Assembly (NCBI GenBank): GCA_035688025.1
Contig: DASSNM010000078.1
Coordinates: 915 to 64,914, forward strand
Reading direction: 5' to 3'
DNA: 64,000 nucleotides
DNA from: Gaiellaceae bacterium
GTDB taxonomy: Bacteria; Actinomycetota; Thermoleophilia; Gaiellales; Gaiellaceae
The position numbers and the translations under genes are program-made. Within the stretch, counting starts at the first letter, position 1; the number at the start of each line of letters is the position of its first letter. This document shows, piece after piece, positions 35,028 through 64,000 of this stretch. The notes under the pieces are model-generated. The model worked only from the letters and a program-made list of their open reading frames with translations, searched no databases and was not told where the DNA came from.

Positions 35028-35221
35028 CCCGGGCAGTGTAGTGGCCGCCGCGCGACCGCTTTCCGCCTGGATTTCGTGGCCTTCTGACAACGTGCAAGCC
35101 CCCTCGAACGGGTGATCGTTGGCCGCGGAAACCGCGAGTATGATCGCCGCAAGGCGACGGGTTCTGCGGCTCTTGAACCCCCGCCCCATGCGGACAAGCG
35201 GGAGAGGAAGGCACAAGGGGC

Positions 35222-36757
35222 ATGTCGGACGGACCGAGCGAGCACTCCTCGTTCATCGAGTTCCTACGGATTGCGCGGCGGCGCAAGTGGCTGATCCTGG
35301 CCGCGATCGTCGTCGTCCCGCTCGCCGCCTACTACCACGCGAAGCGCCAGCCCCCCGTCTTCCAGGCGTCCTCGCAGGTGCTCCTGACCCCGCAGAACCC
35401 CGCGGCCGCGTACGCCGGCGTCGGCGGCTCGAGCTCCGCCTCGGTCGACCCCGTCCGCTACGGCGCCACCCAGTCGTTCCTCGCCCGCTCCCCGGCCGTC
35501 GTCAACAGCGTCCTCCGGGAGGCCGACAACCCGAACCTCAACGCCGGGATCCTGCTCGGGTCGACGTCGGTCACCTCGCTCTCCGACGCCAACCTGCTCG
35601 TCTTCACCGCCCGCGGCGGCACGCCCGACATCGCGCAGCAGCTCGCGAACCTCTACGCGCAGGGGTTCACCCAGTACCGCCGCCACGTCGACTCCGCCGG
35701 CGTCAAGGGGGCGATGGCCCAGCTCCAGAAGAGCCTCGACGGGCTCGGCAAGAACGAGACCGCGCTCCGCGGCCAGATCATCGACAAGCTCGAGTCGCTG
35801 CGCACGATCCAGTCGCTCCAGGCCCAGGCGACGTATCTCGCGCGCCCGGCCGGCCCCGGCATCCAGGTCGCGCCCCGCCCCCAGCGCGACGCGATGCTCG
35901 GGCTCGTGCTCGGGATCGTGATCGGCGTCGGCCTCGCCTTCCTCCGCGACGCCTCCGACACCCGCATCCGCACGACGGACGAGATCGGCGACCGGCTCGG
36001 CATGCCGCTCCTCGGCCACCTTCCCGAGCTCGACAAGCGCAGCCGCGCCGAGCGCCGGCTCGTGATGCTCGACGAGCCGTACGGCGCCTCCGCCGAGATG
36101 TTCCGGATGCTCCGGACGAGCATCGACCTCGCCAACCTCGACCGGCACGCGCACGCGATCATGGTCACGAGCGCGAGCGAGGGCGAGGGCAAGACGACGA
36201 CCGCGTGCAACCTCGCGATCGCGTTCGCCGCCTCCGGCCGCCGGGTCGTCCTGCTCGACCTCGACCTGCGCCGGCCGACCGTCCACAACCTGCTCGGCCT
36301 CGCGAGCCGTCCGGGGCTCACCGACGTCGCCGTCGGCCAGGCGGCGCTCACCGAGGCGCTCGTCAAGGTGACGCTCGAGGACGACCACAGCGGCGGCTCC
36401 TTCATGGTGCTGCCCTCCGGGCCGATGCCGCCGAACCCGGGCGAGTTCGCCGGCACGACCGCGGTCGGCGAGCTGCTCGCCGAGCTGCAGGCGATGTCCG
36501 ACCTCGTGATCGTCGACACGCCCCCGGTCCTGCAGGTCGCCGAGGCGATGAGCGTCTCGAGCCGCGTCGACGCGATGCTCGTCGTCGTCAACGTCGCCGC
36601 CGCGAAGCGCGGCCAGATCGCGGAGATGCACCGGCAGCTCGAGCGCTCGCCGGTGAAGAAGCTCGGCTTCGTCGCGATCGGCGGCCCGGAGAGCCCGGCC
36701 GGCCAGTACGAGCACTACGCCCCGTTCGCCTATCCCGTCGACGACCTCGTCTCGTGA
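35222..36757 (+). CDS. polysaccharide co-polymerase (Wzz-like) fused to a BY-type tyrosine autokinase
   Basis: Track ORF of 511 aa. The N-terminal Wzz pattern is [24 protein letters not shown], followed by a long loop and a second TM ([17 protein letters not shown]). The kinase domain has Walker [12 protein letters not shown], plus [11 protein letters not shown] and LVIVDTPP. The C-terminal Tyr cluster is [11 protein letters not shown]. Confidence 0.9.
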
Positions 36758-38274
36758 GCACCCTCGTCTCCGACCTCGCACCCGAGCTCGACGTCGCCCA
36801 CGACGGCGGCCACGTCCTGCCGCGCCCGCACGACTTCCAGCGGCTGTCGAGCCGCGTCGCCCGCGAGCGCGGCTGGCTCGTCCGCCGCGCGCTCGTCGCC
36901 GCCGAGGGCCTGGCGCTCGTGCTCTCGTACGGGCTCGCGGACGTCATCGTCCACGGCGCCGGCCAGCTCGGGCAGGCGGGGTTCTGGCGCTCGCTCCCGC
37001 TCGCGCTGCTCGTCCTCCCGCTCTGGATCGTCGCCGCGAAGGTCGCCGGCCTCTACGACCGCGACATCCGCTTCGCGAGCTACTCGTCGACCGAGGACGT
37101 CGCCCCCGTCTTCGGCGTCGCCACGCTCGGCGCGCTCGTCGCCCTCTTCGCCTGGCACCTCGCCGGCGCCGAGCCGTCGTGGGGCCAGATCGGCGTCTGC
37201 TGGCTGACCGTCATCCCGGCGGTGACGATCGGCCGCGCGACGGCCCGGGCGCTCGTCTGGCGCAGCCACGCCTTCCGCCAGAACACGGTCATCGTCGGCG
37301 CCGGCGACGTCGGCCGCGCCGTCGCGCAGAAGTTCAGCCGCCACCCGGAGACCGGGATCGACGTGATCGGCTTCGTCGACTCCGACCTCGAGCCGATGCT
37401 CGACATCGACGGGCTGCCGCTGCTCGGCACGACGCACGAGCTGCCGCTCTTCGCACGCGAGCTCGGCGTGCAGCGCGTCGTCATCGCCTTCTCGTCCGAC
37501 CACCACGAGCAGGTGCTCGACCTCGTCCGCGAGCTGCGCGAGCTCGGCGTCCACGTCGACATCGTCCCGCGGCTCCTCGACGTGGTCGGCCCCGGCACCG
37601 AGGTGCACGACATCGAGGGGATGCCGCTCGTCGGCCTCGCGACGCTCCGCCTCTCCCGCTCGTCGCTGATCGTCAAGCGGACGCTCGACCTGACGCTCGC
37701 CTCGCTGATCCTGCTCCTGCTGCTGCCGGTGTTCCTCGTCGTCGCCGCCGCGATCGCGCTCGACTCGCGCGGGCCCGTCTTCTTCCGGCAGACGCGGATG
37801 GGCTACCGCAACCAGCCGTTCCGGCTCTTCAAGTTCCGGACGATGGTCAAGGACGCCGACCTCCGCAAGCACGAGTTCGCGCACCTCAACCGGCACGCGG
37901 CCGAGGGCGGCGACGCGCGCATGTTCAAGATCTGCAACGACCCTCGCGTGACGCGTGTCGGCCGCGTCCTGCGCAAGTACTTCCTCGACGAGCTGCCGCA
38001 GCTGATCAACGTGCTCCGCGGCGAGATGAGCCTGATCGGGCCGCGGCCGCTGATCCCGGAGGAGGCCGCGTTCGTGGAGAGCTGGGGCAACCGCCGCCTC
38101 GACCTGAAGCCCGGCATGACCGGGAGCTGGCAGGTGCTCGGCCGCAGCGCGATCTCGTTCGAGGAGATGGTCAAGCTCGACTACTGGTACGTGACCACCT
38201 GGTCGCTCGGCCGCGACCTGCGCCTCCTGCTGCGCACGGTCCCGCTCGTGCTGCGCGGCGAGGCGCCGGTCTGA
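36754..38274 (+). CDS. polyprenyl-phosphate hexose-1-phosphate transferase (WbaP/CpsE-type 'bacterial sugar transferase'), priming enzyme
   Basis: This is the 3' part of track ORF 35119..38274, with a GTG at 36754 (GTGA overlap), giving 506 aa. It has about 4 N-terminal TM helices and a Rossmann-like linker (VIVGAGDVGRAVA). The catalytic domain contains RGPVFFRQTRMGYRNQPFRLFKFRTM, LPQLINVLRGEMSLIGPRP and PGMTGSWQV. Confidence 0.92.
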   Translation: MSTLVSDLAPELDVAHDGGHVLPRPHDFQRLSSRVARERGWLVRRALVAAEGLALVLSYGLADVIVHGAGQLGQAGFWRSLPLALLVLPLWIVAAKVAGLYDRDIRFASYSSTEDVAPVFGVATLGALVALFAWHLAGAEPSWGQIGVCWLTVIPAVTIGRATARALVWRSHAFRQNTVIVGAGDVGRAVAQKFSRHPETGIDVIGFVDSDLEPMLDIDGLPLLGTTHELPLFARELGVQRVVIAFSSDHHEQVLDLVRELRELGVHVDIVPRLLDVVGPGTEVHDIEGMPLVGLATLRLSRSSLIVKRTLDLTLASLILLLLLPVFLVVAAAIALDSRGPVFFRQTRMGYRNQPFRLFKFRTMVKDADLRKHEFAHLNRHAAEGGDARMFKICNDPRVTRVGRVLRKYFLDELPQLINVLRGEMSLIGPRPLIPEEAAFVESWGNRRLDLKPGMTGSWQVLGRSAISFEEMVKLDYWYVTTWSLGRDLRLLLRTVPLVLRGEAPV

Positions 38275-38398
38275 CAGGAGCCGAGTCGTGGCTGCGACGA
38301 CGGCAAGCGCCGCCTCCTCGGCCGGCGGAGTTCGCAACGGCGGACGGGCGCGATACCGTGATCGTGCACCGCTGCACGCCGCCGGACCCGAGATCCGC

Positions 38399-38941
38399 AT
38401 GAACGTCTTCGCACTCGTCGACGGCGACCCGCTCGCCGACCCGGAGCCGCTGATCCGGCGCGTCTACGCGTACGTCGCCTACCGCCTCGGCCACGGCCCG
38501 GAGGCGGAGGACGTCGTCGCGGCGACGTTCGAGCGCGCGCTCCGCTACCGGCACACGTACAGCCCGAAGCGCGGCGAGCCGATGGCATGGCTCGTGGGGA
38601 TCGCGAAGCACTGCCTCAACGACGCGCTCTCGGCGCGCGCGCAGGCGCCGGCCGAGCTGCGCCCCGAGGACGACGGCTCGGCGTCGTTCGAGGAGGCGTC
38701 GCTCGAGCGGCTCGCGCTCCGCGAGGCGATCGCGCGGCTGTCCGAGCGCGACCAGGAGCTGCTCGCGCTGCGCTACGGCGCCGACATGAGCGCCCGCGCG
38801 ATCGCGAAGCTGATGAACGCGCGGCCGAACGCGGTCGAGGTGGCGCTGCACCGGGCCGTGTCGCGGCTGCGGGAGGAGCTGGAGCCGCCGGTGGGGAGAC
38901 CGCACGCCCCGTCGAGCGCCGCGACGCCGGAGGCGTTCTGA
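38399..38941 (+). CDS. ECF-type sigma-70 family RNA polymerase sigma factor
   Basis: Uses the ATG at 38399 inside track ORF 38288..38941. Region 2 is RRVYAYVAYRLGHGPEAEDVVAATFERALRYRHTYSPKRGEPMAWLVGIAKHCLNDAL. Region 4 is LSERDQELLALRYGADMSARAIAKLMNARPNAVEVALHRAVSRLREEL. The alternative GTG at 38288 has a good AGGAG SD, but that stretch has visibly lower GC3. The stop shares one base with the wzm ATG. Confidence 0.8.
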   Translation: MNVFALVDGDPLADPEPLIRRVYAYVAYRLGHGPEAEDVVAATFERALRYRHTYSPKRGEPMAWLVGIAKHCLNDALSARAQAPAELRPEDDGSASFEEASLERLALREAIARLSERDQELLALRYGADMSARAIAKLMNARPNAVEVALHRAVSRLREELEPPVGRPHAPSSAATPEAF

Positions 38942-39849
38942 TGGCGAGCATGCCCCACACCGGCGCCGACCCGGTCGCGTCGGCGCTCGCCGCGCCGCCG
39001 CTCGAGGCGACGCGGCTCCCGGAGCTCCCCGAGATCGTCGTCGAGGGCGGCCCGGGACGCGTCTCGCGCGCCGGCCTGCGTGAGCTCTGGGACTTCCGCG
39101 AGCTCGTGACCGCGTTCGCGGCGCGGCAGGTGCTCGTCAAGTACAAGCAGGCGTTCGTCGGCCTCGGCTGGTCGGTCGTCCAGCCGGTCGCGAGCGCGAT
39201 CATCTTCTCGATCTTCCTCGGCCGCTTCGCGCATCTCGGCGGCGAGGGGCTCCCCTACGTGCTGTTCGTCCTCGCCGGGATGACCTCGTGGACGTTCTTC
39301 TCCGGCGCGCTCGGCAACTCGATGGAGTCGTGCGTGCGCGACGCCGTGCTGCTGCGCAAGGTCTTCTTCCCGCGGGAGATCCTGCCGCTGGCGGCGGTGC
39401 TCGCGTCGCTCGTCGACTTCGCCCCCACGCTGCTGACGCTCGTCGTCGTCTCCGCGGTCAAGGGGATCTACCCCGCCTGGACGCTGCTCGCGGTGCCGCT
39501 GCCGCTCGTGATCCTGGTCGCGACCGCGCTCGCGCTCGGGCTCGCCGCGTCGGCGCTCAACGTCTACTACCGCGACGTCCGCTACGTGCTGCCGTTCCTC
39601 GTCCAGATCGGCCTGTTCGCGACGCCCGTCGTGTTCTCGCTCTCGCTCGTGCCCCCGCGCTGGCGGCTCGCCTACCAGACCCTCAACCCGGTGGCGACCG
39701 CGATCGACGACATGCGCCGGGCCGTCGTCCACCACACGTGGCCGGCGCCGCTGCCGAACGCGCTCGCGCTCGTCTGGGTGCTCGTCCTCCTCGTCCTCGG
39801 CTACCTCCTCTTCAAGCGGCTCGAGCGCGGGTTCGCCGACCGGGTGTGA
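38941..39849 (+). CDS. wzm: ABC-2 type polysaccharide export permease
   Basis: This is the 3' part of track ORF 38587..39849, with the ATG at 38941, giving 302 aa. It has the family signature LRELWDFRELVTAFAARQVLVKYKQAFVGLGWSVVQP and 6 TM helices. Confidence 0.9.
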   Translation: MASMPHTGADPVASALAAPPLEATRLPELPEIVVEGGPGRVSRAGLRELWDFRELVTAFAARQVLVKYKQAFVGLGWSVVQPVASAIIFSIFLGRFAHLGGEGLPYVLFVLAGMTSWTFFSGALGNSMESCVRDAVLLRKVFFPREILPLAAVLASLVDFAPTLLTLVVVSAVKGIYPAWTLLAVPLPLVILVATALALGLAASALNVYYRDVRYVLPFLVQIGLFATPVVFSLSLVPPRWRLAYQTLNPVATAIDDMRRAVVHHTWPAPLPNALALVWVLVLLVLGYLLFKRLERGFADRV

Positions 39850-39850
39850 G

Positions 39851-41077
39851 ATGAGCAGCGCGATCGCCTTCGAGAACGTCGTCAAGCACTACCGGGGCGC
39901 CGGCGCGCGCTCGCTCCGCGACGAGCTCGCCGGAGTCGTCCGGCGCGACCGGCCGAAGCGGGTCGTCCGCGCGCTCGACGGGATCAGCTTCGACATCCCG
40001 GAAGGCGAGGCGTGCGCGCTGCTCGGCGCGAACGGCGCCGGCAAGACGACCGCGCTCAAGCTCGCGACCCGGATCGCGTACCCGACGAGCGGGACGGTCC
40101 GCGTCCGCGGTCGGGTCGGCGCGCTGATCGAGGTCGGCAGCGGCATGCATCCCGAGCTGACCGGGCGCGAGAACGTCCTCCTCTACGGCCGCATCCTCGG
40201 CCTCTCCCGCGCCGACGTCGCGCGCCGCTTCGACGAGATCGTCGAGTTCGCCGAGGTCGGCCCGGCGATCGACCAGCCGGTGAAGCAGTACTCGTCCGGG
40301 ATGCAGCTGCGGCTCGGCTTCGCCGTCGCGGCGCACCTCGAGCCCGACGTGCTGATCGTCGACGAGGCGATCGCGGTCGGGGACGCGGGCTTCCAGCTCC
40401 GCTGCGTCGAGCGGATGTCGAAGCTCGTCCGCGAGGGCCGGACGCTCGTCTTCGTCTCGCACAACACGAACGCGGTCGAGACGCTCTGCAGCCGCGCCGT
40501 CATGCTCCGCCAGGGGGAGGTCGTCCTCGACGGACCGGCGCCCGAGGTCGTGGCCGCCTATCTCGACTCGTTCGCGCAGGCGCGGCTCGAGCGCCAGGCC
40601 GACCATGCCGCGCTCGGCTCGCCGCTCGAGATCCTGCGGACGAGCCTGCACGACGCGAGCGGACGCGAGGTGGACGAGATCGCCTCCGGCGAGCCGCTGA
40701 CGGTGCGCCTGCACTATCGGGCCGCCCGGCCGCTCGAGCGGCCGATCGTCAACGTCGGCCTCGCCGATCCGCGCATCGGCTGCTTCACGACCGCGTCGAT
40801 GGCCCGCGACGGCGGCTCGCCGGAGCTGCTCGTCGGCGAGGGGTCGATCGACGTGACGTTCGCGGAGCTGCCCCTGCTCCCGCGCGTCTACGAGGTCTGG
40901 GCGGGCGGCCGCTCGGGCGTCGGCGTCGGCGCGATCCTCGACTGGCAGCGCCTGCGCCTCTTCCGCGTCGTCGACGAGCGCGAGCGGCAGGGCAAGACCG
41001 CCGTCACCGCGACCCAGAACTCGGGGCCGGTGCTCATCCCCTACGCCTGGAGCTTCGGCGGGCGCGACGAGGGCTGA
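39851..41077 (+). CDS. wzt: polysaccharide export ABC ATPase with a ~160-aa C-terminal extension (Wzt-type)
   Basis: Track ORF of 408 aa. It has Walker A GANGAGKTT, the signature YSSGMQLRL and Walker B VLIVDEA. An additional beta-rich domain follows (LEILRTSLHDASGREVDEIASGEPLTVRLHY...WQRLRLFRVV), in the position of the Wzt glycan-terminus-binding domain. Confidence 0.9.
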   Translation: MSSAIAFENVVKHYRGAGARSLRDELAGVVRRDRPKRVVRALDGISFDIPEGEACALLGANGAGKTTALKLATRIAYPTSGTVRVRGRVGALIEVGSGMHPELTGRENVLLYGRILGLSRADVARRFDEIVEFAEVGPAIDQPVKQYSSGMQLRLGFAVAAHLEPDVLIVDEAIAVGDAGFQLRCVERMSKLVREGRTLVFVSHNTNAVETLCSRAVMLRQGEVVLDGPAPEVVAAYLDSFAQARLERQADHAALGSPLEILRTSLHDASGREVDEIASGEPLTVRLHYRAARPLERPIVNVGLADPRIGCFTTASMARDGGSPELLVGEGSIDVTFAELPLLPRVYEVWAGGRSGVGVGAILDWQRLRLFRVVDERERQGKTAVTATQNSGPVLIPYAWSFGGRDEG

Positions 41078-41078
41078 G

Positions 41079-42053
41079 ATGGGCGCAGGCGGGACCGTCT
41101 TCGTGGTCGGCGCGGCGCGCAGCGGCACGACGTTCGTCCAGACCCTGCTCGGCGCCCACCCGGGCGTCGTGACGGCGCAGGAGAACGACCTCTTCGACCA
41201 GTTCGTCGCCCCGTGGCGGGCGGCCTGGGAGTACCAGCTCCCGGCGGACGCCGAGACGTGGCGGCGGCGGCGGCACAAGGGCCTGCCCGCGGTGCTGCGC
41301 GAGGAGGAGTTCGACGCGCTCCTCGCGGGCGCGATCGAGCGCGTGCACGCGGCGACGCGCGCGCTCAAGCCGGAGGCGTCGGTGCTCGTCGACAAGACGC
41401 CCGGCAACGTCCTCCACGCCGAGCTGATCCTCCGCTTCCTCCCCGACGCGCGCTTCGTCCACGTCGTCCGAGACGGACGCGACGTCGTCTGCTCGCTGCG
41501 CCGCGCCGGCCGCGGCTGGGGCGCAGAATGGGCGTCGCAGGCGCTCGTCGACAACGCGCGCGCCTGGCGCGCCAGGGTCGAGGCGGGGCACGGGATCGCC
41601 TCGCTCGCCGACGCGTACCGCGAGGTGCGCTTCGAGCGGCTCGCGGCCGGGGAGGGCGCCGCCGAGGAGCTGGGACGGCTGTTCGCCTTCTGCGGCGTCG
41701 AGGCGACCGCGGCGGAGTGCGCCCGGATCCTGGCCGAGCACGAGCTCGGCGCCGAGGCCCGGTCGAGCCTCGTCTGGGGCGGCGAGGTGGTCGCCCGGCT
41801 CGGCGGCCCGCCGGAGGAGCCCGAGGGGTTCGCGGGCGAGGGCGGCGTCGGCGCGTGGCGGCGCGAGCTCGGCGCCCGCGAGCGGCTCGTCGTCGAGCGC
41901 TATGCGGGCGACCTGCTGCGCGAGCTCGGCTACGCGGGCGACGACTGGCCGGGGGTCGCGCCGCTCGCGCGCGGCGTCGCGCTCGGGCGGCTCGCGCTCG
42001 AGCGGGCCCGGCTCCGCACCGGGCGGGCGCTGCGGGGAGCGCTGCAGCAGTGA
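41079..42053 (+). CDS. sulfotransferase (Sulfotransfer_3-like)
   Basis: Track ORF of 324 aa. It has the 5'-PSB loop VVGAARSGTTFV and the 3'-PB motif HVVRDGRDVVCSL. It starts 1 nt after the wzt stop. Confidence 0.85.
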   Translation: MGAGGTVFVVGAARSGTTFVQTLLGAHPGVVTAQENDLFDQFVAPWRAAWEYQLPADAETWRRRRHKGLPAVLREEEFDALLAGAIERVHAATRALKPEASVLVDKTPGNVLHAELILRFLPDARFVHVVRDGRDVVCSLRRAGRGWGAEWASQALVDNARAWRARVEAGHGIASLADAYREVRFERLAAGEGAAEELGRLFAFCGVEATAAECARILAEHELGAEARSSLVWGGEVVARLGGPPEEPEGFAGEGGVGAWRRELGARERLVVERYAGDLLRELGYAGDDWPGVAPLARGVALGRLALERARLRTGRALRGALQQ

Positions 42054-58586: not shown

Positions 58587-59686
58587 CCGTCGCCCTCGTC
58601 CACGACTACCTCACGCAGCGCGGCGGCGCGGAGCGCGTCGTGCTCGCGCTGCTCGACGCGTTCCCGGGCGCGCCGGTGCACACGTCCCTCTACGACCCCG
58701 ACGGGACGTTCGCCGAGTTCGCCGCCGCCGACGTCCGCCCGAGCCCTCTCGACCGGGTCGGCCTCCTGCGCCGCCACCACCGGCTGGCGCTGCCGCTGCT
58801 CGCGCGGACCTTCGAACGGCTCGTCGTCGACGCGGACGTCGCCGTCTGCAGCTCGAGCGGCTGGGCGCACGGCGCGCGCGTCACCGGCCGCAAGGTCGTC
58901 TACTGCCACACGCCGGCGCGCTGGCTCTACCAGACCGACCGCTATGCCGGCGAGACCGGCCGGGCGGCCCGGCTCGCCGTCGGCGTCCTCGGCCGCCGCC
59001 TGCGCGCGTGGGACCGCGCCACCGCGGCGAGCGCGGACGCCTATCTCGTCAACTCGACCGCCGTCCGCGACCGGGTCCGCGAGCTCTACGGGATCGCGGC
59101 CGAGGTCGTCCCGCCGCCGCCGGCGCTCGAGCCCGACGGCGAGCAGCGGCCGGTGCCCGGACTCGAGCCCGGCTTCGTCCTCTGCGTCTCCCGGCTGCTG
59201 CCGTACAAGAACGTCGGCGCGGTCGCGGCCGCCTTCGCCCGTCTCCCGGACGCGCGCCTCGTCGTCGCCGGAGGAGGTCCGGAGCTCGAGCGGCTGCGGC
59301 GGACGGCGCCCGAGAACACGACCGTGCTCGGGCGGGTCGGCGACGACGAGCTGCGCTGGCTCTACGCAAACGGCGCGGGAGTCGTCGCCGCCTCGTACGA
59401 GGACTTCGGCCTGACGCCGCTCGAGGGCGCGGCGTTCGGACGGCCGGCGGCGGTGCTCCGGTTCGGCGGCTTCCTCGACACCGTCCGCGACGGGGAGACC
59501 GGACTCTTCTTCGCCGAGCCGACGCCCGAGGCGATCGCCGAGGCCGTCGAGCGGCTGCTCGCGAGCCGCTGGGACGAGTCCCGGCTGCGCGCCCACGCGG
59601 GCCTGTTTGGTCGTGCTCGGTTCGTGGAAAGACTCCGCGAAGCAGCAGCGGGCGGAACATCACCTCTACCTCGAGTCGAGCCTTAA
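58583..59686 (+). CDS. GT4-family glycosyltransferase (last gene of the locus)
   Basis: ATG at 58583 (ATGA overlap), 367 aa. It has an MTVALVHDYLTQRGGAERV N-terminus and the motifs VSRLLPYKN and EDFGLTPLEG. It ends in a TAA stop. Confidence 0.85.
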   Translation: MTVALVHDYLTQRGGAERVVLALLDAFPGAPVHTSLYDPDGTFAEFAAADVRPSPLDRVGLLRRHHRLALPLLARTFERLVVDADVAVCSSSGWAHGARVTGRKVVYCHTPARWLYQTDRYAGETGRAARLAVGVLGRRLRAWDRATAASADAYLVNSTAVRDRVRELYGIAAEVVPPPPALEPDGEQRPVPGLEPGFVLCVSRLLPYKNVGAVAAAFARLPDARLVVAGGGPELERLRRTAPENTTVLGRVGDDELRWLYANGAGVVAASYEDFGLTPLEGAAFGRPAAVLRFGGFLDTVRDGETGLFFAEPTPEAIAEAVERLLASRWDESRLRAHAGLFGRARFVERLREAAAGGTSPLPRVEP

Positions 59687-59916
59687 CCCTGCCGGGGTTT
59701 GGCTCAACTGTCGCGAAAACCCCCATCCGAGGGATATCGGCTTGCCCCAACCAGGGACACAGTTCGCGTGTTGTAAGTGCGAAAACACTCGCGATCTGAG
59801 TGAGCGTGCCGTATCCTGCGCCCACTCGGTTGCAGGTGGCACGAGAACGAGTGCGGCTAGTTCTTCGATGTTGAGCGACGAGGGGTGGTACACGCTTGAC
59901 CCCTGAGGCGAAGGGG
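59687..59916 (+). promoter_or_regulatory. low-GC intergenic leader/promoter region upstream of the giant surface-protein gene
   Basis: Apart from 38275..38398, this is the only sizeable non-coding stretch in the right half of the window, and it is visibly less GC-rich. A 7-bp hairpin (GGGGTTT 59694..59700 / AAACCCC 59717..59723) follows the GT4 stop. Candidate promoter elements are TTGTAA at 59771, GAAAAC-N18-CGTG at 59781..59808 and TATCCT at 59812. The SD-like GAGGCGAAGGGG lies just before the ATG at 59917. None of these elements is validated. Confidence 0.4.
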
Positions 59917-62900
59917 ATGTTGCGGCGGCTGCGGCTCCGCCTTGAGGATTGGGACTGGCGCCACGAAGCGGGGCGCGCCCGCCTGGCTTCGCTCGGCGGC
60001 CTCCTCCTCGTCACCGCGCTCGCGGCGGGCGTGGCGCTGTTCTTCGCCGGCAAGGCGACGTCGGCGTCCCGCAACTGCGTCGCCACGCTCGCGAGCGGCT
60101 CGACCGCGATCAACGCGGCGGCCGGATACACCTGCGACGGCACCGCGAACTCGACGCTCGTCCTGACCGGCTCGACGCCGGACAACCTGACGATCAACAA
60201 CGGCCAGATCATCACCGTCCCGGCCGACGCGACCGCCGGCGTGGCGTACCTCCTCAACAACGTCACGATCAACTCCGGCGGCAAGCTGAACCTGAACGAC
60301 GCGACGTCGAGCACCACGGGAGACGTGACCGTGCTCGGCACGTACACGATGGCGAACGGCGGCCTGCAGCAGTGGGCGAACCAGGCGGGCACGCTCGAGC
60401 TCGACGGCAACGTCACGATCGCGAGCGGGAACACCTCCGCGAACTGGATCGGCGTCAACAGCGGCACGCGCGTCCTCAAGCTCGCGGGCTCGGGCAACTC
60501 GACCTACGACGTCGCCTCGACGATCTACGTCAACCGCCTCTGGGTGGCGGTGCCGAGCGGCACCACGAAGACCTTCAGCCCGTCGGTCTCGCAGGCGAAC
60601 CCGGCGATCAACGTCACCCAGACAGGCGGCGTCACCGGCGCGTCGATCCCGACGGAGCTCGACCTCGGCACCGGCACGCCGAGCGGCACCGGCTGCAGCC
60701 CGACGACGCCGACGCGGAGCAACAACGTCGCCGGCAACATCGCGCAGACCGGCAGCCCCGGCAGCAACGGCACGATCCTCTTCAACCCGAGCACGGTCGA
60801 GCACAACTGCGTCGACGCCCACACCGGCGGCGTCGGCGACAACTCGACCGCGCTCCTGGTCGTCGGCGGCGCGAGCGGCAGCACCGTCAACATCGTCCCG
60901 CAGGGCAGCCTCGACTACGGCTCGTTCCCGAAGATGTCGATGGACCTGACGAACCAGACCATCAACTGGGTCGGGCCGCTGCTCTCTGGCACGACGGTCG
61001 CCGCGGCGCGTCTCGGTCAGGACCTCACCGTCACGAACGGCAGCGGCACGACCCACTGGTCGCTGAACAACATGCGCTTCGACTTCGCGCCGGCAGACGG
61101 GAACACGATGACGCTCTCGCCGAGCAGCGAGACGTGGCAGTCGGTGGACATCGGCGGCGAGAACGGCAACGGCGCGAACGACGGCCACGTCGTCATCGCG
61201 GACGGGAAGACGCTGAACGTCAACGCGAACGTCGGCCTGATGGACGGCTATCTCGACGTCAACGGCGGCGGCGCCGGCACCGGCACCGTGAAGATGACGG
61301 GCAACAACAAGGGCCTCGTCCTCAACTCGGCCTTCGACGGCGGCACCGGCACGATCGCGCTCTTCGGCGGCAGCACCGCCTCCGGCCCGATCTGGCTCGA
61401 CGGCTGCTACGGCGCCTCGAGCGACAGCAACTTCAGCGGCGGCAACACCGCGAACGTGACCGGCGCGACGGAGCACTGCCTCGGCGACGTCGGCGCGACG
61501 AGCGCCGTGTATCCGAAGACGATCACCGTCGACGCGGGCGCGTTCGTCGGCGTCCAGGGCAACATCCGCTTCCAGAGCGGCGGCTCGTTCGCGAACAGCT
61601 CGAACCAGCTCCAGCTCGGCGGCTTCTCGAGCTCGGTCGCGACGGCGAGCGCGAACCCGGGCGACGGCTCGACGGTGACGATCCACGACGTCACCTACCG
61701 CTTCGCGGCCACCCCGTCGAGCGGCAACGACGTCCAGATCGGCGCGTCTCGGGACATCACGCTCGCGAACCTCGCCGCGGCCGTCAACGGCACCGGGACG
61801 CCGGGCACCGAGTACTTCGCGGGCACGGCGCAGCCCGGCGACGTCGTGGCGTCGGGCGTGAACACGACGAACCACACGCTCATCCTGCGCTCGCACGCGC
61901 CGGGGACGACCGGGAACGGCGCCTATCTGGCGACCGCGAGCGGGGCGAGCAACATCACCTGGACGAGCGGCACCTTCAGCGGCGGCGACACGAACAACGC
62001 CGGCACCGTCTACTCGGCGGGCGCGTCGCTCACCGGGACGGCGACCTTCTACAACCTGTCGATCTCGGGCTCGACGACGCTGAACAGCAACACGACGGTG
62101 CTCGGCAACCTGATCCTGAACGCCGTTCCGTCCGGCTCCGGGACGATCTACATGTCGCCGCCCGCTTCGACGACGCGCATGATCCAGAGCGACACGAATC
62201 AGACGCTCTCCCAGCCGCTGTGGCTGAACGGCGAGAACTCGAACGCGAACGTCGCCGTCAAGAAGCTCGACGGGTCGACGAACGGCACGGTCACGGCGAC
62301 CGGCGCGGTGACGCTGAACTCGGGCACGCTGTCCGCCGGCGAGATCGACGCCCAGGGCAACGTCTCGGCGAGCCAGTACTTCAGCGGCGGCGCCGGCACG
62401 CTCAAGCTCAACAACACGAGCGCGGGCCAGACGTTCACGGGCACGCAGACGTCGACGGCCGGCGACCTGCCGAACGTGACCATCGCCGACACCGGCCAGA
62501 CGATGACCCTCTCGGGCACGGTGCGCAGCACGAAGAACTGGACGTTCTCGAGCGGCGCGGGCATCTCGGCGACGGGCTCGACCTTCTACGCGAACGGGAC
62601 GACCTTCGCCGGCTCGCAGACCCTGAACAACCTGAACGTGATCGCGAACTCGACGATCTCGAGCGGCACGCTCAGCACCGGCACGAGCGGCGTCGTCACG
62701 TTCGCGGGCGGCAAGCTCGCGACGGGCGCGAACGAGCTCTGGGTGAAGAACACGTCCACCTCCGCGGTGACCGGCGCGAGTGGGACGAACGGCTGGGTGA
62801 ACGGCAACCTCGAGCGCTCGATCCCGGGCTCCGGCTCGAGCCAGGCGTACACGTGGGACATCGGCGGCGCGACGAACTACACGCCCGCGACGACGACGTT

Positions 62901-64000
62901 CCCGACCCTGACCCAGGCCGGCTCGATCACGATGTCGGCGACGAGCGCGGACGCCACGCACAAGAGCACCTGGACGCTCAGCTCGACGAACTACGTCAAG
63001 CGCTACTTCACCGTCACGAACAGCGCCACCCCGGTCACGTGGAGCGGCGGCAACGCGAACACGAAGTTCTTCTACGTCACCGGCGACATCCAGAACAGCG
63101 CGACGGAGGCGAACTTCGTCGTCGCCAAGGACACCGATCCGAGCGGCACCGGCTCCTGGAGCACGCTCGCCGCGACCGCCGACGCCGTCGGCCACGGCAC
63201 GACCGCGACGAGTGGGATCAGCTCGCTGCAGTCGTCCGCGACGCAGTTCGCGCTCGGCGAGCCCGGCGGGCCCGACCACTTCAACCTGACGCCTGCGTCG
63301 ACCACGGTCACCGCCGGCGCCTCGACGACGCTGACGATCACCGCCGTGAACTCGAGCAACCAGACGTTCACCGGCTACACCGGCGACAAGACGATCACGC
63401 TCGGCGGCGCGAACAACGCCCCGGACGGGACGGTTCCGACCGGTAGCGACAAGACCGCCGCCGACGTGAACTTCGGCACCGCGACGACCATCACGTTCAC
63501 GAACGGCGTCGGCACGACCACGGTGAAGCTCTACAAGGCCGAGACCGCGCACCTGACCGCGACCGACGGCACGGTCAGCCAGGGCGCAACCGCCGACTGG
63601 ACGGTCAACCCGCACGCGGCGACGCGGCTCGTGGTCACCGGCTCCGGCACGCAGACGGCCGGCAGCGCGCAGACGATCACCCTGACGGCGAAGGACGCGT
63701 GGGGCAACACCGACACGAACTACTCGGGCAACGAGTCGATCACCTTCAGCGGCGCCAACGACCCGCTCGAGACGTCGAACCATCCGACGGTCACCAACAC
63801 GAGCGCGAGCGCCACGAACTTCGGCTCGGCGACGACGATCCACTTCGCCTCGGGCGTCAGCGACAACGACTCCAGCGGCAGCCGCTCGATGATCCTCTAC
63901 AAGGCCGAGACGGCGAACATCGCCGCGGCCGACTCGACGAACGCGATCAGCGCCTCCACCGGCAGCGACCGGCTGACCGTCGTGGTCAGCGCCCACGCCG
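59917..64000 (+). CDS. very large secreted/cell-surface protein, Thr/Asn/Gly/Ser/Ala-rich (S-layer- or adhesin-like), 3' end beyond the window
   Basis: Not in the ORF track because there is no stop within the window. My own translation from the ATG at 59917 gives 1361 uninterrupted codons with the GC3-rich codon usage of the neighbouring genes. It starts MLRRLRLRLEDWDWRHEAGRARLASLGGLLLVTALAAGVALFFAGKATSA, which looks like a signal peptide or anchor. Repetitive segments follow (...NVTINSGGKLNLN..., ...GNVTIASGNTSANW...), ending in Ig-like tandem domains. The nearest in-frame upstream stop is at 59872. Confidence 0.85.
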   Translation, partial: MLRRLRLRLEDWDWRHEAGRARLASLGGLLLVTALAAGVALFFAGKATSASRNCVATLASGSTAINAAAGYTCDGTANSTLVLTGSTPDNLTINNGQIITVPADATAGVAYLLNNVTINSGGKLNLNDATSSTTGDVTVLGTYTMANGGLQQWANQAGTLELDGNVTIASGNTSANWIGVNSGTRVLKLAGSGNSTYDVASTIYVNRLWVAVPSGTTKTFSPSVSQANPAINVTQTGGVTGASIPTELDLGTGTPSGTGCSPTTPTRSNNVAGNIAQTGSPGSNGTILFNPSTVEHNCVDAHTGGVGDNSTALLVVGGASGSTVNIVPQGSLDYGSFPKMSMDLTNQTINWVGPLLSGTTVAAARLGQDLTVTNGSGTTHWSLNNMRFDFAPADGNTMTLSPSSETWQSVDIGGENGNGANDGHVVIADGKTLNVNANVGLMDGYLDVNGGGAGTGTVKMTGNNKGLVLNSAFDGGTGTIALFGGSTASGPIWLDGCYGASSDSNFSGGNTANVTGATEHCLGDVGATSAVYPKTITVDAGAFVGVQGNIRFQSGGSFANSSNQLQLGGFSSSVATASANPGDGSTVTIHDVTYRFAATPSSGNDVQIGASRDITLANLAAAVNGTGTPGTEYFAGTAQPGDVVASGVNTTNHTLILRSHAPGTTGNGAYLATASGASNITWTSGTFSGGDTNNAGTVYSAGASLTGTATFYNLSISGSTTLNSNTTVLGNLILNAVPSGSGTIYMSPPASTTRMIQSDTNQTLSQPLWLNGENSNANVAVKKLDGSTNGTVTATGAVTLNSGTLSAGEIDAQGNVSASQYFSGGAGTLKLNNTSAGQTFTGTQTSTAGDLPNVTIADTGQTMTLSGTVRSTKNWTFSSGAGISATGSTFYANGTTFAGSQTLNNLNVIANSTISSGTLSTGTSGVVTFAGGKLATGANELWVKNTSTSAVTGASGTNGWVNGNLERSIPGSGSSQAYTWDIGGATNYTPATTTFPTLTQAGSITMSATSADATHKSTWTLSSTNYVKRYFTVTNSATPVTWSGGNANTKFFYVTGDIQNSATEANFVVAKDTDPSGTGSWSTLAATADAVGHGTTATSGISSLQSSATQFALGEPGGPDHFNLTPASTTVTAGASTTLTITAVNSSNQTFTGYTGDKTITLGGANNAPDGTVPTGSDKTAADVNFGTATTITFTNGVGTTTVKLYKAETAHLTATDGTVSQGATADWTVNPHAATRLVVTGSGTQTAGSAQTITLTAKDAWGNTDTNYSGNESITFSGANDPLETSNHPTVTNTSASATNFGSATTIHFASGVSDNDSSGSRSMILYKAETANIAAADSTNAISASTGSDRLTVVVSAHA
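63274..63612 (+). repeat. Ig-like domain repeat A inside the surface-protein gene (aa 1120-1232)
   Basis: The sequence HFNLTPASTTVTAGASTTLTITAVNSSNQTFTGYTGDKTITLGGAN...NFGTATTITFTNGVGTTTVKLYKAETAHLTATDGT follows the same pattern as the next unit. Confidence 0.6.
63613..64000 (+). repeat. Ig-like domain repeat B (aa 1233 to the window end)
   Basis: The sequence ATRLVVTGSGTQTAGSAQTITLTAKDAWGNTDTNYSGNESITFSGAN...NFGSATTIHFASGV...MILYKAETANIAAADST shares this pattern with repeat A: T.TAG...T.T.TA......Y.G...IT..GAN...NFG.ATTI.F..GV...LYKAETA. The LYKAETA motif starts at 63529 and at 63895. Confidence 0.6.

What the first reader, a model, noticed from the sequence alone, without database searches (positions are those of the whole stretch)
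35222..64000. 24-kb one-strand glycan-assembly locus plus an adjacent giant surface protein: candidate protein (S-layer/adhesin) glycosylation system
**Seen in sequence.** Twenty-two co-directional genes with essentially no intergenic space encode the following:
- a Wzz-like co-polymerase/BY-kinase and a WbaP-type priming phosphoglycosyl transferase
- an ECF sigma factor
- Wzm, and Wzt with a C-terminal extension
- a sulfotransferase and one epimerase
- 4 GT2 genes and 10 GT4 modules
- a Wzy_C/O-antigen-ligase-family membrane protein

There is no MOP/Wzx-type flippase in the locus. The next gene, after a 230-bp low-GC leader, is an ORF of more than 1361 aa for a Thr/Ser/Asn-rich surface protein.

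**Established knowledge.**
- In ABC-transporter-dependent pathways the polymer is completed in the cytoplasm, so a Wzy polymerase is not needed.
- The Wzy_C family also contains WaaL ligases and the O-oligosaccharyltransferases PglL, PilO and WsaB.
- The Geobacillus stearothermophilus S-layer glycosylation (slg) locus combines the same parts: a WbaP-like WsaP, Wzm/Wzt, glycosyltransferases, a chain-terminating modification and the Wzy_C-type oligosaccharyltransferase WsaB, encoded next to the S-layer protein gene.

**Inference.** This locus may build a long, capped glycan on undecaprenyl phosphate, export it through Wzm/Wzt, and attach it via the Wzy_C protein to Ser/Thr of the downstream giant protein. 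As far as I know, such a system has not been described in a high-GC lineage of this kind.
Basis: partly seen in the sequence, partly recalled or inferred. Interest (0 to 1): 0.85.

Follow-up and report, generated by a model that had tools for sequence, protein, structure and literature searches.

The report
Hybrid glycan-assembly locus beside giant protein
An uncultured soil actinobacterium (Gaiellaceae) carries a real 24.5-kb operon for building and exporting a probably sulfated surface sugar polymer next to a giant Thr/Ser-rich surface protein. The enzyme proposed to attach the sugar to that protein looks more like a sugar-chain polymerase, so protein glycosylation remains possible but is not the best-supported reading.

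Summary
The gene inventory is confirmed. There are 21 tightly packed + strand genes (35222-59686): a Wzz/BY-kinase, a WbaP-type primer, an ECF sigma, Wzm, Wzt with Wzt_C, a sulfotransferase, 4 GT2, an epimerase and 10 GT4 modules. A 230-bp leader follows, then a >1361-aa Thr/Gly/Ser/Asn-rich ORF. No Wzx or LCP gene lies in the 64 kb.

The key "Wzy_C" call is weak. The 53507-55276 protein ("g18") hits no Pfam or NCBIfam model. Only homologues touch PF04932, and its confident AF2 model finds no PDB match.

I surveyed 80 related loci in Thermoleophilia and Acidimicrobiia.
- g18 with a double-GT4 gene forms a conserved core.
- A BY-kinase is nearby in 48 of 80 loci.
- The exporter varies: Wzx (23), a PglK-like ABC (25) or Wzm/Wzt (4 of the 80, plus the window and two further loci).
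- Several loci carry Wzx, g18 and a second, canonical Wzy_C+TPR "ligase". That protein has the PglL/WsfB-like architecture and is absent from the window.

g18 is therefore most parsimoniously a Wzy-like polymerase. Large T-rich proteins follow the locus only in the window's own five-genome clade.

Verdict: a hybrid surface-polysaccharide locus and a new variant of a known kind. Protein O-glycosylation gets about 0.2.

The parts
35222..36757 (+). g1: PCP-2-type protein, a Wzz-like N-terminal domain fused to a BY-kinase (511 aa)
   Evidence: TIGR01007 tyrosine autokinase scores 130.7 bits against a cut-off of 108. PF02706 Wzz scores 24.4 bits, just below its cut-off. It has a Walker A motif GEGKTT at residue 321 and a C-terminal Tyr cluster [10 protein letters not shown].
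36754..38274 (+). g2: WbaP-type polyprenyl-phosphate hexose-1-phosphate transferase (506 aa)
   Evidence: PF02397 at 2e-63 plus CoA_binding_3. TIGR03025 scores 380 bits against a cut-off of 295.
38288..38941 (+). g3: ECF sigma factor. An alternative ATG start at 38399 would give 180 aa.
   Evidence: Sigma70_r2 and r4_2 domains; TIGR02937 at 78 bits. It is orthologous (1e-46 to 2e-56) to the ECF sigma that in relatives sits between the Wzy_C+TPR gene and the T-rich protein. No anti-sigma-like partner is found in the window.
38941..39849 (+). g4: Wzm, the ABC-2 permease
   Evidence: PF01061 at 4.5e-14. Orthologues occur in L002, L009, L019, L059 and L070.
39851..41077 (+). g5: Wzt ATPase with a C-terminal Wzt_C carbohydrate-binding domain
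   Evidence: ABC_tran at 3e-20. PF14524 scores 40.1 bits against a cut-off of 30.4, covering residues 260-376. The nucleotide-binding domain is closest to Aquifex Wzt 8DKU (1.9e-54), then TagH/TarH and mycobacterial RfbE.
41079..42053 (+). g6: PAPS-type sulfotransferase, directly after wzt
   Evidence: PF13469 at 2e-30. The wzt-sulfotransferase adjacency is conserved in L002, L009 and L046, the same loci with the strongest Wzt_C similarity. The nearest solved structures are tyrosylprotein sulfotransferases, but only over the PAPS-binding region (3.5e-7).
42050..45880 (+). g7-g10: four GT2 glycosyltransferases (42050-43006, 42999-43964, 43951-44922, 44906-45880)
   Evidence: PF00535 at 1e-23 to 1e-25 for each. 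g7-g9 are tandem paralogues at 50-58% identity.
45877..47076 (+). g11: GT4 glycosyltransferase
   Evidence: Glyco_transf_4 plus Glycos_transf_1.
47064..47990 (+). g12: NAD-dependent sugar-nucleotide epimerase/dehydratase
   Evidence: PF01370 at 7e-50.
47987..53510 (+). g13-g17: five GT4 glycosyltransferases (47987-49084, 49081-50223, 50220-51305, 51298-52380, 52377-53510)
   Evidence: Glycos_transf_1 and Glyco_trans_1_4 hits. g17 is part of the core conserved across related loci.
53507..55276 (+). g18: polytopic membrane protein of a divergent, uncharacterised Wzy_C-related family, with a Pro/Arg-rich linker and a ~60-aa C-terminal domain
   Evidence: No Pfam or NCBIfam hit of its own. 231 homologues were found, and 22 of 40 touch PF04932. 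hhalign to the Wzy_C+TPR family gives 78% probability, E 1.8e-5, including the shared S-R-G motif. The AF2 model has pLDDT 85 but no PDB match. Invariant residues lie in two predicted outer loops: W208, D209, W212 and R228 in one, and H359, G376, G378, E397, D399 and N402 in the other.
55288..56376 (+). g19: GT4 glycosyltransferase
   Evidence: Glycos_transf_1 at 3e-42.
56373..58586 (+). g20: double GT4 (two complete GT4 modules, 737 aa), the constant partner of g18
   Evidence: Two stretches match each of the GT4 N- and C-terminal domains. Homologues with E-values from about 1e-150 to 1e-279 lie next to g18 homologues in roughly half of the 80 related loci.
58583..59686 (+). g21: GT4 glycosyltransferase, the last gene of the operon and part of the conserved core
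   Evidence: Glycos_transf_1 at 1.3e-24. It is conserved after the double GT4 in relatives.
59687..59916 (+). 230-bp leader or promoter region of the giant gene, at 61% GC
   Evidence: Sequence blocks are conserved with the L001 leader at 59713-59737, 59770-59785, 59842-59863 and 59896-59906. No Rfam family matches, and there is no sigma-70 consensus or terminator after g21.
59917..64000 (+). 5' part of a giant secreted or N-terminally anchored Thr/Gly/Ala/Ser/Asn-rich protein (more than 1361 aa; cut by the contig end)
   Evidence: Composition, with R+K+E only about 5%, and a single N-terminal hydrophobic helix at residues 26-44. It is homologous to the proteins downstream of the locus in L001 (55% identity over 479 aa) and L046. 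There are no significant Pfam hits, and only 4 database relatives, of which P0123 and P0124 carry Big_1/Ig-like domains.

Best explanation
The 24.5-kb operon is an assembly line of hybrid design for a cell-surface heteropolysaccharide, probably sulfated.

**Shown by sequence**
- A WbaP-type transferase (g2) can prime undecaprenyl phosphate.
- Up to 14 glycosyltransferase modules, an epimerase and a PAPS-type sulfotransferase are present.
- A Wzm/Wzt exporter is present, and Wzt carries a Wzt_C carbohydrate-binding domain.
- No Wzx lies within the 64 kb.

**Inferred**
- The lipid-linked glycan is built and sulfated in the cytoplasm.
- The Wzt_C domain recognises a terminal tag on the glycan, possibly the sulfate.
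- Wzm/Wzt takes the export role that Wzx or a PglK-like ABC transporter fills in sister loci.
- Outside the membrane, g18 handles the Und-PP-linked glycan. g18 is a very divergent Wzy_C-superfamily protein that always travels with the double GT4. It most likely acts as a Wzy-like polymerase or transferase.
- The Wzz/BY-kinase g1 acts as co-polymerase and regulator.

The final acceptor is unknown: free or capsular polymer, wall, lipid or protein. The giant T/S/N-rich protein is a separately promoted neighbour specific to this clade. It may function with the glycan or be decorated by it, but no evidence here shows that it is glycosylated.
For: - Gene content is confirmed.
- No Wzx, fused ABC exporter or LCP is found in the window.
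- The core GT4_17-g18-(GT4_19)-doubleGT4-GT4_21 is conserved across Thermoleophilia and Acidimicrobiia.
- Among the 80 species-level loci:
  - a BY-kinase lies within 10 kb in 48;
  - a Wzx-like gene in 23, of which 20 also have a BY-kinase;
  - a fused ABC_membrane+ABC_tran exporter in 25;
  - Wzm in 4.
- No locus has both Wzx and Wzm.
- In L004 and L012, g18 is the only polytopic Wzy-like candidate in an otherwise canonical BYK-PGT-Wzx-GT locus. The other unknown gene there encodes a secreted soluble protein.
- L014, L051, L079 and L084 carry BYK, Wzx, g18 and a separate canonical Wzy_C+TPR ligase-type protein. That leaves the polymerase role for g18.
- In an NJ tree of g18 homologues, the exporter type switches repeatedly between close relatives.
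- The sulfotransferase directly follows wzt wherever the Wzt_C similarity is strong: L002, L009, L046 and the window.
Against: - In textbook ABC-transporter pathways the polymer is finished in the cytoplasm and needs no Wzy. A non-reducing-end cap would also hinder Wzy-type block polymerisation. In this particular locus a ligase role for g18 is therefore mechanistically tidier.
- No experimentally characterised member of the g18 family exists. Polymerase and ligase roles cannot be told apart from sequence.
- Large T-rich surface proteins follow the locus in all five members of the window's clade, and they belong to two unrelated protein families. That hints at functional coupling.
- The flanks examined are only +/-10 kb. 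My labelling of related loci rests on phmmer hits to raw ORFs.
- The rest of the window's genome was not available.
Confidence: 0.5

Rival explanations
1. A capped glycan is completed on Und-PP in the cytoplasm and exported by Wzm/Wzt. g18 then acts as a WsaB/PglL-like O-oligosaccharyltransferase and transfers the glycan en bloc to Ser/Thr of the downstream giant protein. The locus would be an S-layer or adhesin glycosylation system.
For: - The part list matches the Geobacillus slg cluster described in PMC2943079.
- Wzt_C is present, with a modification enzyme encoded next to wzt.
- The window has no Wzx and no LCP.
- g18 is the only candidate extracytoplasmic transferase in the locus.
- A T-rich large protein lies directly downstream in every member of the window's clade: WIN, L001, L002, L006 and L046.
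- O-OTase genes often sit next to their target genes (PMC3643930).
Against: - g18 has no PF04932 or PglL_A (PF15864) hit and no TPR.
- Its family is mostly found in BY-kinase/Wzx EPS-type loci without any large surface protein.
- Relatives have a separate Wzy_C+TPR protein, the architecture reported for PglL and WsfB, placed next to the ECF sigma and the T-rich protein. That protein is absent from the window.
- A BY-kinase is not part of the known slg or Pgl systems described in the sources read here.
- The association with a giant protein is confined to one clade, so it amounts to one evolutionary event.
- L009 keeps the PGT-Wzm-Wzt-sulfotransferase-g18 layout but has no large protein downstream.
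Confidence: 0.22
2. This is a two-glycan, or dual-chain, model. The locus is a composite of two modules. One is ABC-transporter-dependent: Wzm/Wzt, the sulfotransferase, the GT2 genes and some of the GT4 genes. The other is the ancestral g18 core: GT4_17, g18, GT4_19, the double GT4, GT4_21 and the BY-kinase. The two lipid-linked products meet outside the membrane. There g18 joins or polymerises one onto the other, or the core unit is flipped by a flippase encoded elsewhere in the genome.
For: - The g18 core is found unchanged with three different exporter types.
- In the window clade, the block from Wzm/Wzt and the sulfotransferase through the GT2 genes, GT4_11-16 and the epimerase lies between the primer and the core.
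- 14 GT modules is a large number for a single repeat unit.
- A second priming enzyme of the WecA/MraY type lies at 7305-8564.
- Dual-chain wall polysaccharides are known in lactococci and enterococci. This point comes from my own knowledge and was not checked here.
Against: - Only one priming transferase lies inside the locus.
- No second flippase is visible in the 64 kb.
- All genes appear to form one translationally coupled operon.
- No GT-C-type extracytoplasmic glycosyltransferase was detected.
Confidence: 0.15
3. The adjacency is coincidental. The glycan locus makes a free EPS or capsule. The giant protein is an unrelated adhesin or cell-surface protein that simply occupies a variable surface-gene hotspot at the end of the locus.
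For: - The giant gene has its own 230-bp leader, with blocks conserved between the window and L001.
- Two unrelated protein families occupy the same slot in sister genomes.
- Most g18 loci have no such neighbour.
- In relatives, the slot is that of the anti-sigma-like partner of the ECF sigma.
Against: - Every one of the five clade members has a T-rich large protein at this position.
- The ECF sigma gene links the two in relatives.
Confidence: 0.1

Closest known systems
Geobacillus stearothermophilus NRS 2004/3a S-layer glycosylation (slg) cluster: WsaP, Wzm/Wzt, WsaC-F, WsaB, with sgsE nearby
   Same: - Both have a WbaP-type primer combined, unusually, with a Wzm/Wzt exporter.
- Both are polycistronic one-strand clusters with overlapping genes.
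- In slg a chain-end modification is thought to be read by Wzt. The window has Wzt_C plus a candidate modification enzyme.
- Both have a Wzy_C-related membrane protein.
- In both, a large surface-protein gene lies close by (PMC2943079).
   Different: - The window has a Wzz/BY-kinase and an ECF sigma inside the locus.
- It has a sulfotransferase where slg has the WsaE methyltransferase domain.
- It has 14 GT modules and no rml genes.
- Its Wzy_C-like protein does not hit PF04932 itself. That protein belongs to a family that mostly sits in Wzx/BY-kinase loci.
- The neighbouring protein has no recognisable S-layer features.
- The organism is a high-GC actinobacterium (Thermoleophilia).
Wzx/Wzy-dependent capsule/EPS loci with a PCP-2 BY-kinase (for example E. 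coli group 1 capsule Wzc, Gram-positive CpsC/D systems). This comparison is from my own knowledge.
   Same: - PGT primer.
- Wzz-domain BY-kinase with a C-terminal Tyr cluster.
- A Wzy_C-like polytopic protein embedded among GT4 genes.
- Sister loci such as L004, L012 and L014 have exactly this layout, including a Wzx.
   Different: - The window has no Wzx.
- Its exporter is a Wzm/Wzt transporter with a carbohydrate-binding domain, a combination not part of the textbook pathway.
ABC-transporter-dependent O-antigen assembly with Wzt_C recognition of a chain cap and WaaL ligation (E. coli O8/O9a, Aquifex Wzm/Wzt)
   Same: - Wzm/Wzt with a Wzt_C domain. The nucleotide-binding domain is closest to Aquifex Wzt 8DKU.
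- A modification enzyme is encoded next to wzt.
- A Wzy_C-superfamily protein acts after export (PMC9445017 abstract; PMC2943079).
   Different: - No lipid A-core acceptor is expected in an actinobacterium. This is an assumption and was not tested.
- The primer is WbaP-type, not WecA.
- A BY-kinase is present.
- The putative cap enzyme is a sulfotransferase, for which I know of no precedent as a Wzt_C ligand.
PglL/PilO/WsfB protein O-oligosaccharyltransferases
   Same: - They are distant members of the same Wzy_C superfamily.
- The gene lies close to a possible target gene (PMC3643930).
   Different: - g18 has no PglL_A (PF15864) or PF04932 hit and no TPR.
- Relatives carry a distinct Wzy_C+TPR protein that matches this architecture better. 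It is not in the window.

Membership tests
Wzy_C / O-antigen ligase-like superfamily (PF04932), for g18 | Significant match of the protein itself to PF04932 | tested here: not met
   No Pfam family at E<=10 and no relevant NCBIfam family.
Wzy_C / O-antigen ligase-like superfamily (PF04932), for g18 | Homology to bona fide Wzy_C proteins through intermediates or profiles | tested here: inconclusive
   - 22 of 40 homologues hit PF04932 at E<=1, best 6.6e-8.
- About 10% of homologues carry a precomputed PF04932 hit.
- hhalign of A1 against the Wzy_C+TPR family A2 gives 78% probability and E 1.8e-5 over only 89 columns, which include the shared S-R-G motif.
- The A1 profile finds no WaaL in PDB sequences, whereas A2 finds WaaL 7TPG at 5.8e-6.
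Wzy_C / O-antigen ligase-like superfamily (PF04932), for g18 | Polytopic membrane protein with conserved Arg/His in extracytoplasmic loops | tested here: met
   The AF2 model (pLDDT 85) shows about 12-14 membrane helices. Invariant residues include R228, R280, H359, E397 and D399. The loop topology is inferred from positive-inside charges, not measured.
Wzy_C / O-antigen ligase-like superfamily (PF04932), for g18 | Fold similarity to solved WaaL (7TPG) | tested here: not met
PglL-type protein O-oligosaccharyltransferase | PglL_A motif (PF15864) or PglL_B motif flanking Wzy_C | tested here: not met
   The Pfam-A scan at E<=10 returned nothing. The motifs are defined in PMC3643930.
PglL/WsfB-type O-OTase | C-terminal TPR, or an adjacent TPR protein as with WsaA/WsaB | tested here: not met
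   The g18 C-terminus is a Pro/Arg-rich linker plus a 60-aa helical domain with no TPR hit. No TPR gene lies in the locus. The TPR-bearing Wzy_C family A2 exists in relatives only.
PglL/WsaB-type O-OTase | Transfer of Und-PP-linked glycan to Ser/Thr/Tyr of a protein | not testable with these tools
   This needs glycoproteomics or an in vitro assay.
slg-type S-layer glycosylation cluster | WbaP-like primer, Wzm/Wzt and GTs in one polycistronic cluster | tested here: met
   definition from PMC2943079.
slg-type S-layer glycosylation cluster | The target is an S-layer protein | tested here: inconclusive
   - The giant protein is secreted or anchored and T/S/N-rich. It has no SLH or other S-layer signature.
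- Its C-terminus is missing.
- The AF2 model of residues 41-740 was unusable, with pLDDT 38.
ABC-transporter-dependent glycan pathway | Wzm permease plus Wzt ATPase; Wzt_C domain for capped chains | tested here: met
   PF01061, PF00005 and PF14524 all score above their cut-offs. The nearest solved structure is Aquifex Wzt.
ABC-transporter-dependent glycan pathway | A chain-terminating modification recognised by Wzt_C | not tested
   The only indication is that the sulfotransferase is adjacent to wzt in 4 loci. The substrate and position of sulfation are unknown.
Wzx/Wzy-dependent pathway | MOP-family Wzx flippase in the locus | tested here: not met
   No Polysacc_synt or MOP hit appears in any scanned window gene. 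An iterated Wzx HMM finds 24 related loci but not the window. A Wzx elsewhere in the genome cannot be excluded.
Wzx/Wzy-dependent pathway | PCP-2 co-polymerase with BY-kinase (Walker A/A'/B motifs, C-terminal Tyr cluster) | tested here: met
   TIGR01007 scores above its cut-off. A GEGKTT Walker A motif and three Tyr in the last 18 residues are present. The Walker A' and B motifs were read by eye in the translation.

The most novel reading that the evidence does not exclude
g18 defines a new, highly divergent branch of the Wzy_C superfamily that acts as a ligase. Under this reading the window encodes an ABC-transporter-dependent protein O-glycosylation system in Actinomycetota (Thermoleophilia). 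I know of no such system described there. A long glycan tagged at its end with sulfate would be read by Wzt_C, exported, and attached to the giant Thr/Ser-rich surface protein.
Probability: 0.2. Interest if true: 0.8.

Novelty: new variant of a known kind. Interest (0 to 1): 0.5.

Why it matters
Surface-glycan assembly is usually taught as separate routes: Wzx/Wzy, ABC transporter and synthase.

This locus and its relatives show one conserved core, an uncharacterised Wzy_C-like protein with a double GT4. That core is combined interchangeably with Wzx, a PglK-like ABC exporter or Wzm/Wzt. It often also has a BY-kinase and sometimes a second, TPR-bearing ligase-type protein.

If the window's combination is functional, one of two things follows:
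- a Wzy-like enzyme and a BY-kinase work downstream of a Wzm/Wzt exporter; or
- a new ligase branch exists in monoderm actinobacteria.

Either would extend the rules used to annotate glycan loci. It would also open up the cell envelope of Thermoleophilia and Acidimicrobiia, abundant soil lineages about whose surfaces almost nothing is known.

A sulfotransferase coupled to a Wzt_C transporter would be a new kind of export tag.

None of this is demonstrated here. All of it rests on MAG sequence.

Tried and rejected
- **Foldseek of the g18 AF2 model against the PDB.** There were no meaningful hits. It neither supports nor excludes a WaaL-like fold.
- **A1 profile against PDB sequences.** Nothing relevant was found.
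- **hhalign of A1 and of A2 against E. coli K-12 WaaL as a single sequence.** This had no power. Even the bona fide Wzy_C family A2 scored 0.1% probability.
Similarity is too low for a meaningful alignment, and the reference sequences were not at hand.
- **Last protein-database search, with the Wzy_C+TPR profile.** The aim was to see whether the window's genome (locus tags VFJ91_) has such a gene elsewhere. The top 120 of 1388 hits included no such tag, so the result is inconclusive.
- **AF2 of giant-protein residues 41-740 without an alignment.** The model had pLDDT 38 and was unusable.
- **N-X-S/T sequon enrichment in the giant protein.** I counted 38 against 29 +/- 4.4 in shuffles. This is marginal and was not pursued.
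- **Idea that the giant protein's N-terminus is the anti-sigma partner of g3.** An HMM of the anti-sigma-like N-termini of relatives scores it at E 0.45, so I rejected the idea.
- **Search for a repeated ECF-type promoter motif.** The conserved leader block occurs only once in the window.
- **Rfam scan of 33-64 kb.** No family matched.
- **My own GC3-based gene callers on related loci.** They were unreliable below about 68% GC. I replaced them with phmmer and HMM labelling of raw ORFs.

Full report
**Origin and gene calls**

The window is nearly all of a 65,126-bp contig of an uncultured Gaiellaceae bacterium (Thermoleophilia, Actinomycetota). The 53507-55276 product is 100% identical to NCBI "MAG TPA: hypothetical protein VFJ91_10730". 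The giant ORF matches the partial protein VFJ91_10750.

At about 75% GC the raw ORF list is dominated by spurious frames, so I called genes from third-position GC. This gives 21 + strand genes from 35222 to 59686. Neighbouring genes overlap by 1-17 nt or are separated by 1-13 nt. A 230-bp gap follows, and then an ORF from 59917 that runs off the window. Upstream, a methylmalonyl-CoA mutase gene on the minus strand (33360-35216) bounds the locus.

**Checking the inventory**

| Gene(s) | Assignment | Key support |
|---|---|---|
| g1 | Wzz-like N-terminus fused to a BY-kinase | TIGR01007 above cut-off; Walker A GEGKTT; C-terminal Tyr cluster |
| g2 | WbaP-type phosphoglycosyl transferase | PF02397 2e-63 |
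| g3 | ECF sigma factor | Sigma70_r2 and r4_2 |
| g4 | Wzm | PF01061 |
| g5 | Wzt with a Wzt_C domain | PF14524 above its gathering score; NBD closest to Aquifex Wzt 8DKU |
| g6 | PAPS-type sulfotransferase | PF13469 |
| g7-g10 | Four GT2 | g7-g9 are tandem paralogues at 50-58% identity |
| g12 | Epimerase | PF01370 |
| g11, g13-17, g19-21 | Nine GT4 genes with ten GT4 modules | g20 is a double GT4 |

No MOP/Wzx flippase, fused ABC exporter or LCP ligase is found anywhere in the 64 kb.

The giant ORF is T 16%, G 13%, A 11.5%, S 11% and N 8%, with very few charged residues. It has one N-terminal hydrophobic helix, which fits a secreted or N-terminally anchored surface protein. It has no significant Pfam hit.

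**The weak point: the "Wzy_C" protein (g18)**

- g18 itself matches no Pfam or NCBIfam model, even at E<=10.
- It has 231 database homologues, nearly all unnamed.
- 22 of 40 aligned homologues touch PF04932 at E<=1, best 6.6e-8.
- A profile of the family finds no WaaL among PDB sequences.
- A confident AF2 model (pLDDT 85, pTM 0.81) finds nothing in the PDB by Foldseek.
- Profile-profile comparison with a genuine Wzy_C family (A2, described below) gives 78% probability and E 1.8e-5 over 89 columns. That stretch includes a shared S-R-G motif at the end of a membrane helix.

I therefore accept g18 as a very distant Wzy_C-superfamily relative, on indirect evidence only. It lacks the PglL_A motif that PMC3643930 uses to separate O-oligosaccharyltransferases from WaaL. 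It also lacks any TPR. Its C-terminus is a Pro/Arg-rich linker plus a 60-aa domain, predicted cytoplasmic by charge, and conserved only in the closest relatives.

**Context across genomes**

Exact-protein look-ups and one scan of species-representative genomes gave 84 loci. Nearly all are Thermoleophilia or Acidimicrobiia MAGs. I labelled their raw ORFs with phmmer and iterated HMMs built from the window's proteins and from loci L002-L004.

- **Conserved core.** GT4_17-g18-(GT4_19)-doubleGT4-GT4_21 recurs widely.
- **BY-kinase.** One lies within 10 kb in 48 of 80 loci.
- **Exporter varies.**
  - A Wzx-like MOP protein occurs in 23 loci, 20 of them with a BY-kinase. Pfam confirms it for L014.
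  - A fused ABC_membrane+ABC_tran half-transporter (PglK/MsbA-like) occurs in 25.
  - Wzm occurs in 4 of the 80. It also occurs in the window and in L002, and L046 has wzt at its contig edge.
  - No locus has both Wzx and Wzm.
- **Switching.** In an NJ tree of g18 homologues the exporter type switches repeatedly between close relatives.
- **L004 and L012.** The layout is BYK-PGT-Wzx-GTs-g18-doubleGT4-GT4. g18 is the only polytopic Wzy-like candidate there. The neighbouring 686-aa unknown is a secreted soluble protein.

**A second, better ligase candidate that the window lacks**

About 19 loci carry another protein, which I call "Wzy2" (alignment A2).
- It has a strong PF04932 core whose profile hits WaaL 7TPG at 5.8e-6.
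- It also has C-terminal TPR repeats.
- Database sources name it "O-antigen ligase/TPR".
- The S-layer review states that PglL and WsfB have exactly this Wzy_C + C-terminal TPR architecture, and that WsaB has a TPR protein encoded next to it.

L014, L051, L079 and L084 contain a BY-kinase, Wzx, g18 and Wzy2 together. That is a flippase, a polymerase-slot protein and a ligase-slot protein. This is the main reason I read g18 as the Wzy-like polymerase of the family.

In L002, L006, L007 and L008 the order is GT4_21-Wzy2-ECF sigma-T-rich protein.

The window, L001 and L046 have no Wzy2 in the sequence available. I could not determine whether the window's genome has one elsewhere.

**The giant protein and synteny**

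T/S/G-rich, Arg-poor large ORFs lie within 10 kb of a g18 homologue in only a handful of genomes. In the g18 tree, five of them form one clade: the window, L001/L005, L006, L002 and L046. All five have the Wzm/Wzt and sulfotransferase layout wherever the contig reaches that far, together with the ECF sigma.

The downstream proteins fall into two unrelated families.
- The window, L001 and L046 share one family, with 55% identity over 479 aa between the window and L001.
- L002 and L006 share another. It has Ig-like arrays behind an N-terminus that resembles the small anti-sigma-like partner of the ECF sigma.

L009 keeps PGT-Wzm-Wzt-sulfotransferase-...-g18 but has only ordinary-sized ORFs downstream.

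So the co-occurrence is real, but phylogenetically it amounts to about one event. The replacement of one T-rich protein family by another at the same position is a mild hint of functional coupling.

**How it most likely works**

*Shown.* The parts are present for Und-P priming, cytoplasmic glycan assembly, sulfation and Wzm/Wzt export with a carbohydrate-binding Wzt. A BY-kinase co-polymerase and one distant Wzy_C-like membrane protein are also present.

*Inferred.*
- Wzm/Wzt has taken over the export step that Wzx or a PglK-like ABC performs in sister loci.
- The sulfotransferase provides the feature read by Wzt_C. It sits directly after wzt in the four loci with closely related Wzt_C domains.
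- g18 acts on the exported Und-PP-glycan, most probably as a polymerase or transferase under BY-kinase control.

*The tension.* In this particular locus a capped, cytoplasmically completed polymer would not need a polymerase, so a ligase role is mechanistically neater. Family context argues for a polymerase and local logic for a ligase.

I put the models at these confidences:

| Model | Confidence |
|---|---|
| Generic hybrid surface-polysaccharide reading, with acceptor unknown | 0.5 |
| Two-glycan composite | 0.15 |
| Coincidental adjacency | 0.1 |

**Comparison with known systems and novelty**

- The closest described system in its part list is the Geobacillus slg cluster. That system has no BY-kinase, and its WsaB is a recognisable Wzy_C protein.
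- The closest in family context is a Wzx/Wzy/BY-kinase EPS locus, but the window has no Wzx.
- Limited literature searches found nothing on such loci in Gaiellales, nor on Wzy_C-type O-OTases in Actinobacteria.

I rate this a new variant of a known kind. The interest lies mainly in the exporter-swapping g18 core and the unusual mix of BY-kinase, Wzm/Wzt_C and sulfotransferase. It does not lie in a demonstrated glycoprotein system.

**Caveats**

- All related sequences are MAGs.
- Flanks are limited to 10 kb.
- Labels in related loci come from homology to raw ORFs, not from curated annotation.
- The monoderm, LPS-free status of Gaiellaceae is assumed, not tested.

Noticed in passing
L002:17037-21779; L006:16834-20836; L007:14778-17818; L008:8672-11900; L017:4065-7300; L085:10001-12867; L086:10001-13047: A three-gene module is conserved in relatives. 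It consists of a Wzy_C+TPR 'O-antigen ligase' gene, an ECF sigma gene, and a gene for a small single-pass membrane protein with the N-terminal motif LExELRxxRPxP, which looks like an anti-sigma factor. The module occurs even outside glycan loci; in L085 it lies among housekeeping genes and YkuD transpeptidase genes. In L002, L006 and L017 the anti-sigma-like protein carries a long T-rich or Ig-like extracellular extension. The window has the orthologous ECF sigma (g3) but neither partner.
   Followed up: partly
window 59713-59737, 59770-59785, 59842-59863, 59896-59906: Sequence blocks in the 230-bp leader of the giant gene are conserved with the leader of the orthologous gene in L001. Examples are GCGAAAACCCCC.TCCGAGGGATAT and CGAGAAC.AGTGCGGC.AGTTC. 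They match no Rfam family and no sigma-70 consensus, and the second block is unique in the window. This may be a promoter or a 5'-UTR element.
   Followed up: partly
L005-L084 (survey); examples L004:3362-4714 (Wzx), L017:18816-20666 and L036:5446-7734 (fused ABC), L009:101-3681 (Wzm/Wzt): The same g18 + double-GT4 core is paired with three different exporter classes in closely related genomes: Wzx in 23 loci, a PglK/MsbA-like fused ABC in 25 and Wzm/Wzt in 4. Wzx and Wzm never occur together in one locus.
   Followed up: yes
window 42050-44922: Three tandem paralogous GT2 genes (g7-g9) share 50-58% identity. The same set is present in L001. L006 has only one gene of this type (plus a g10-like GT2), and L002 has none. 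This is a recent expansion in the window's lineage.
   Followed up: partly
window 7305-8564 (-), 13602-14765 (+), 19335-21326 (+), 21336-22184 (+), 29363-30202 (+), 30199-31347 (-), 32515-33384 (-): More envelope-glycan genes are scattered upstream of the locus. They are a WecA/MraY-type transferase, three AT3 acyltransferases (one fused to SGNH), a second sulfotransferase, a sulfatase-like protein and a GT2.
   Followed up: no
window 55100-55276 (g18 residues ~530-589): A confidently modelled ~60-aa helical domain follows a Pro/Arg-rich linker at the C-terminus of g18. It is probably cytoplasmic. It is detectable only in the closest relatives (L001, L002, L006), and its function is unknown.
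   Followed up: no
window 41079-42053: The nearest solved structures to the locus sulfotransferase are eukaryotic tyrosylprotein sulfotransferases (E 3.5e-7). The match covers only the PAPS-binding N-terminal 140 residues, so it does not indicate the acceptor.
   Followed up: no
window 38275-38398: The start of the ECF sigma gene is ambiguous: GTG at 38288 or ATG at 38399. The later start gives a typical 180-aa ECF sigma and leaves a 124-nt gap after g2 that could hold an internal promoter.
   Followed up: no
L004:14859-16919 and homologues in L010, L012, L047, L061, L067, L072, L075, L076: A 686-aa secreted or lipoprotein-like protein with no Pfam hit recurs at the end of Wzx-type g18 loci. 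It may be a glycan-processing enzyme.
   Followed up: no
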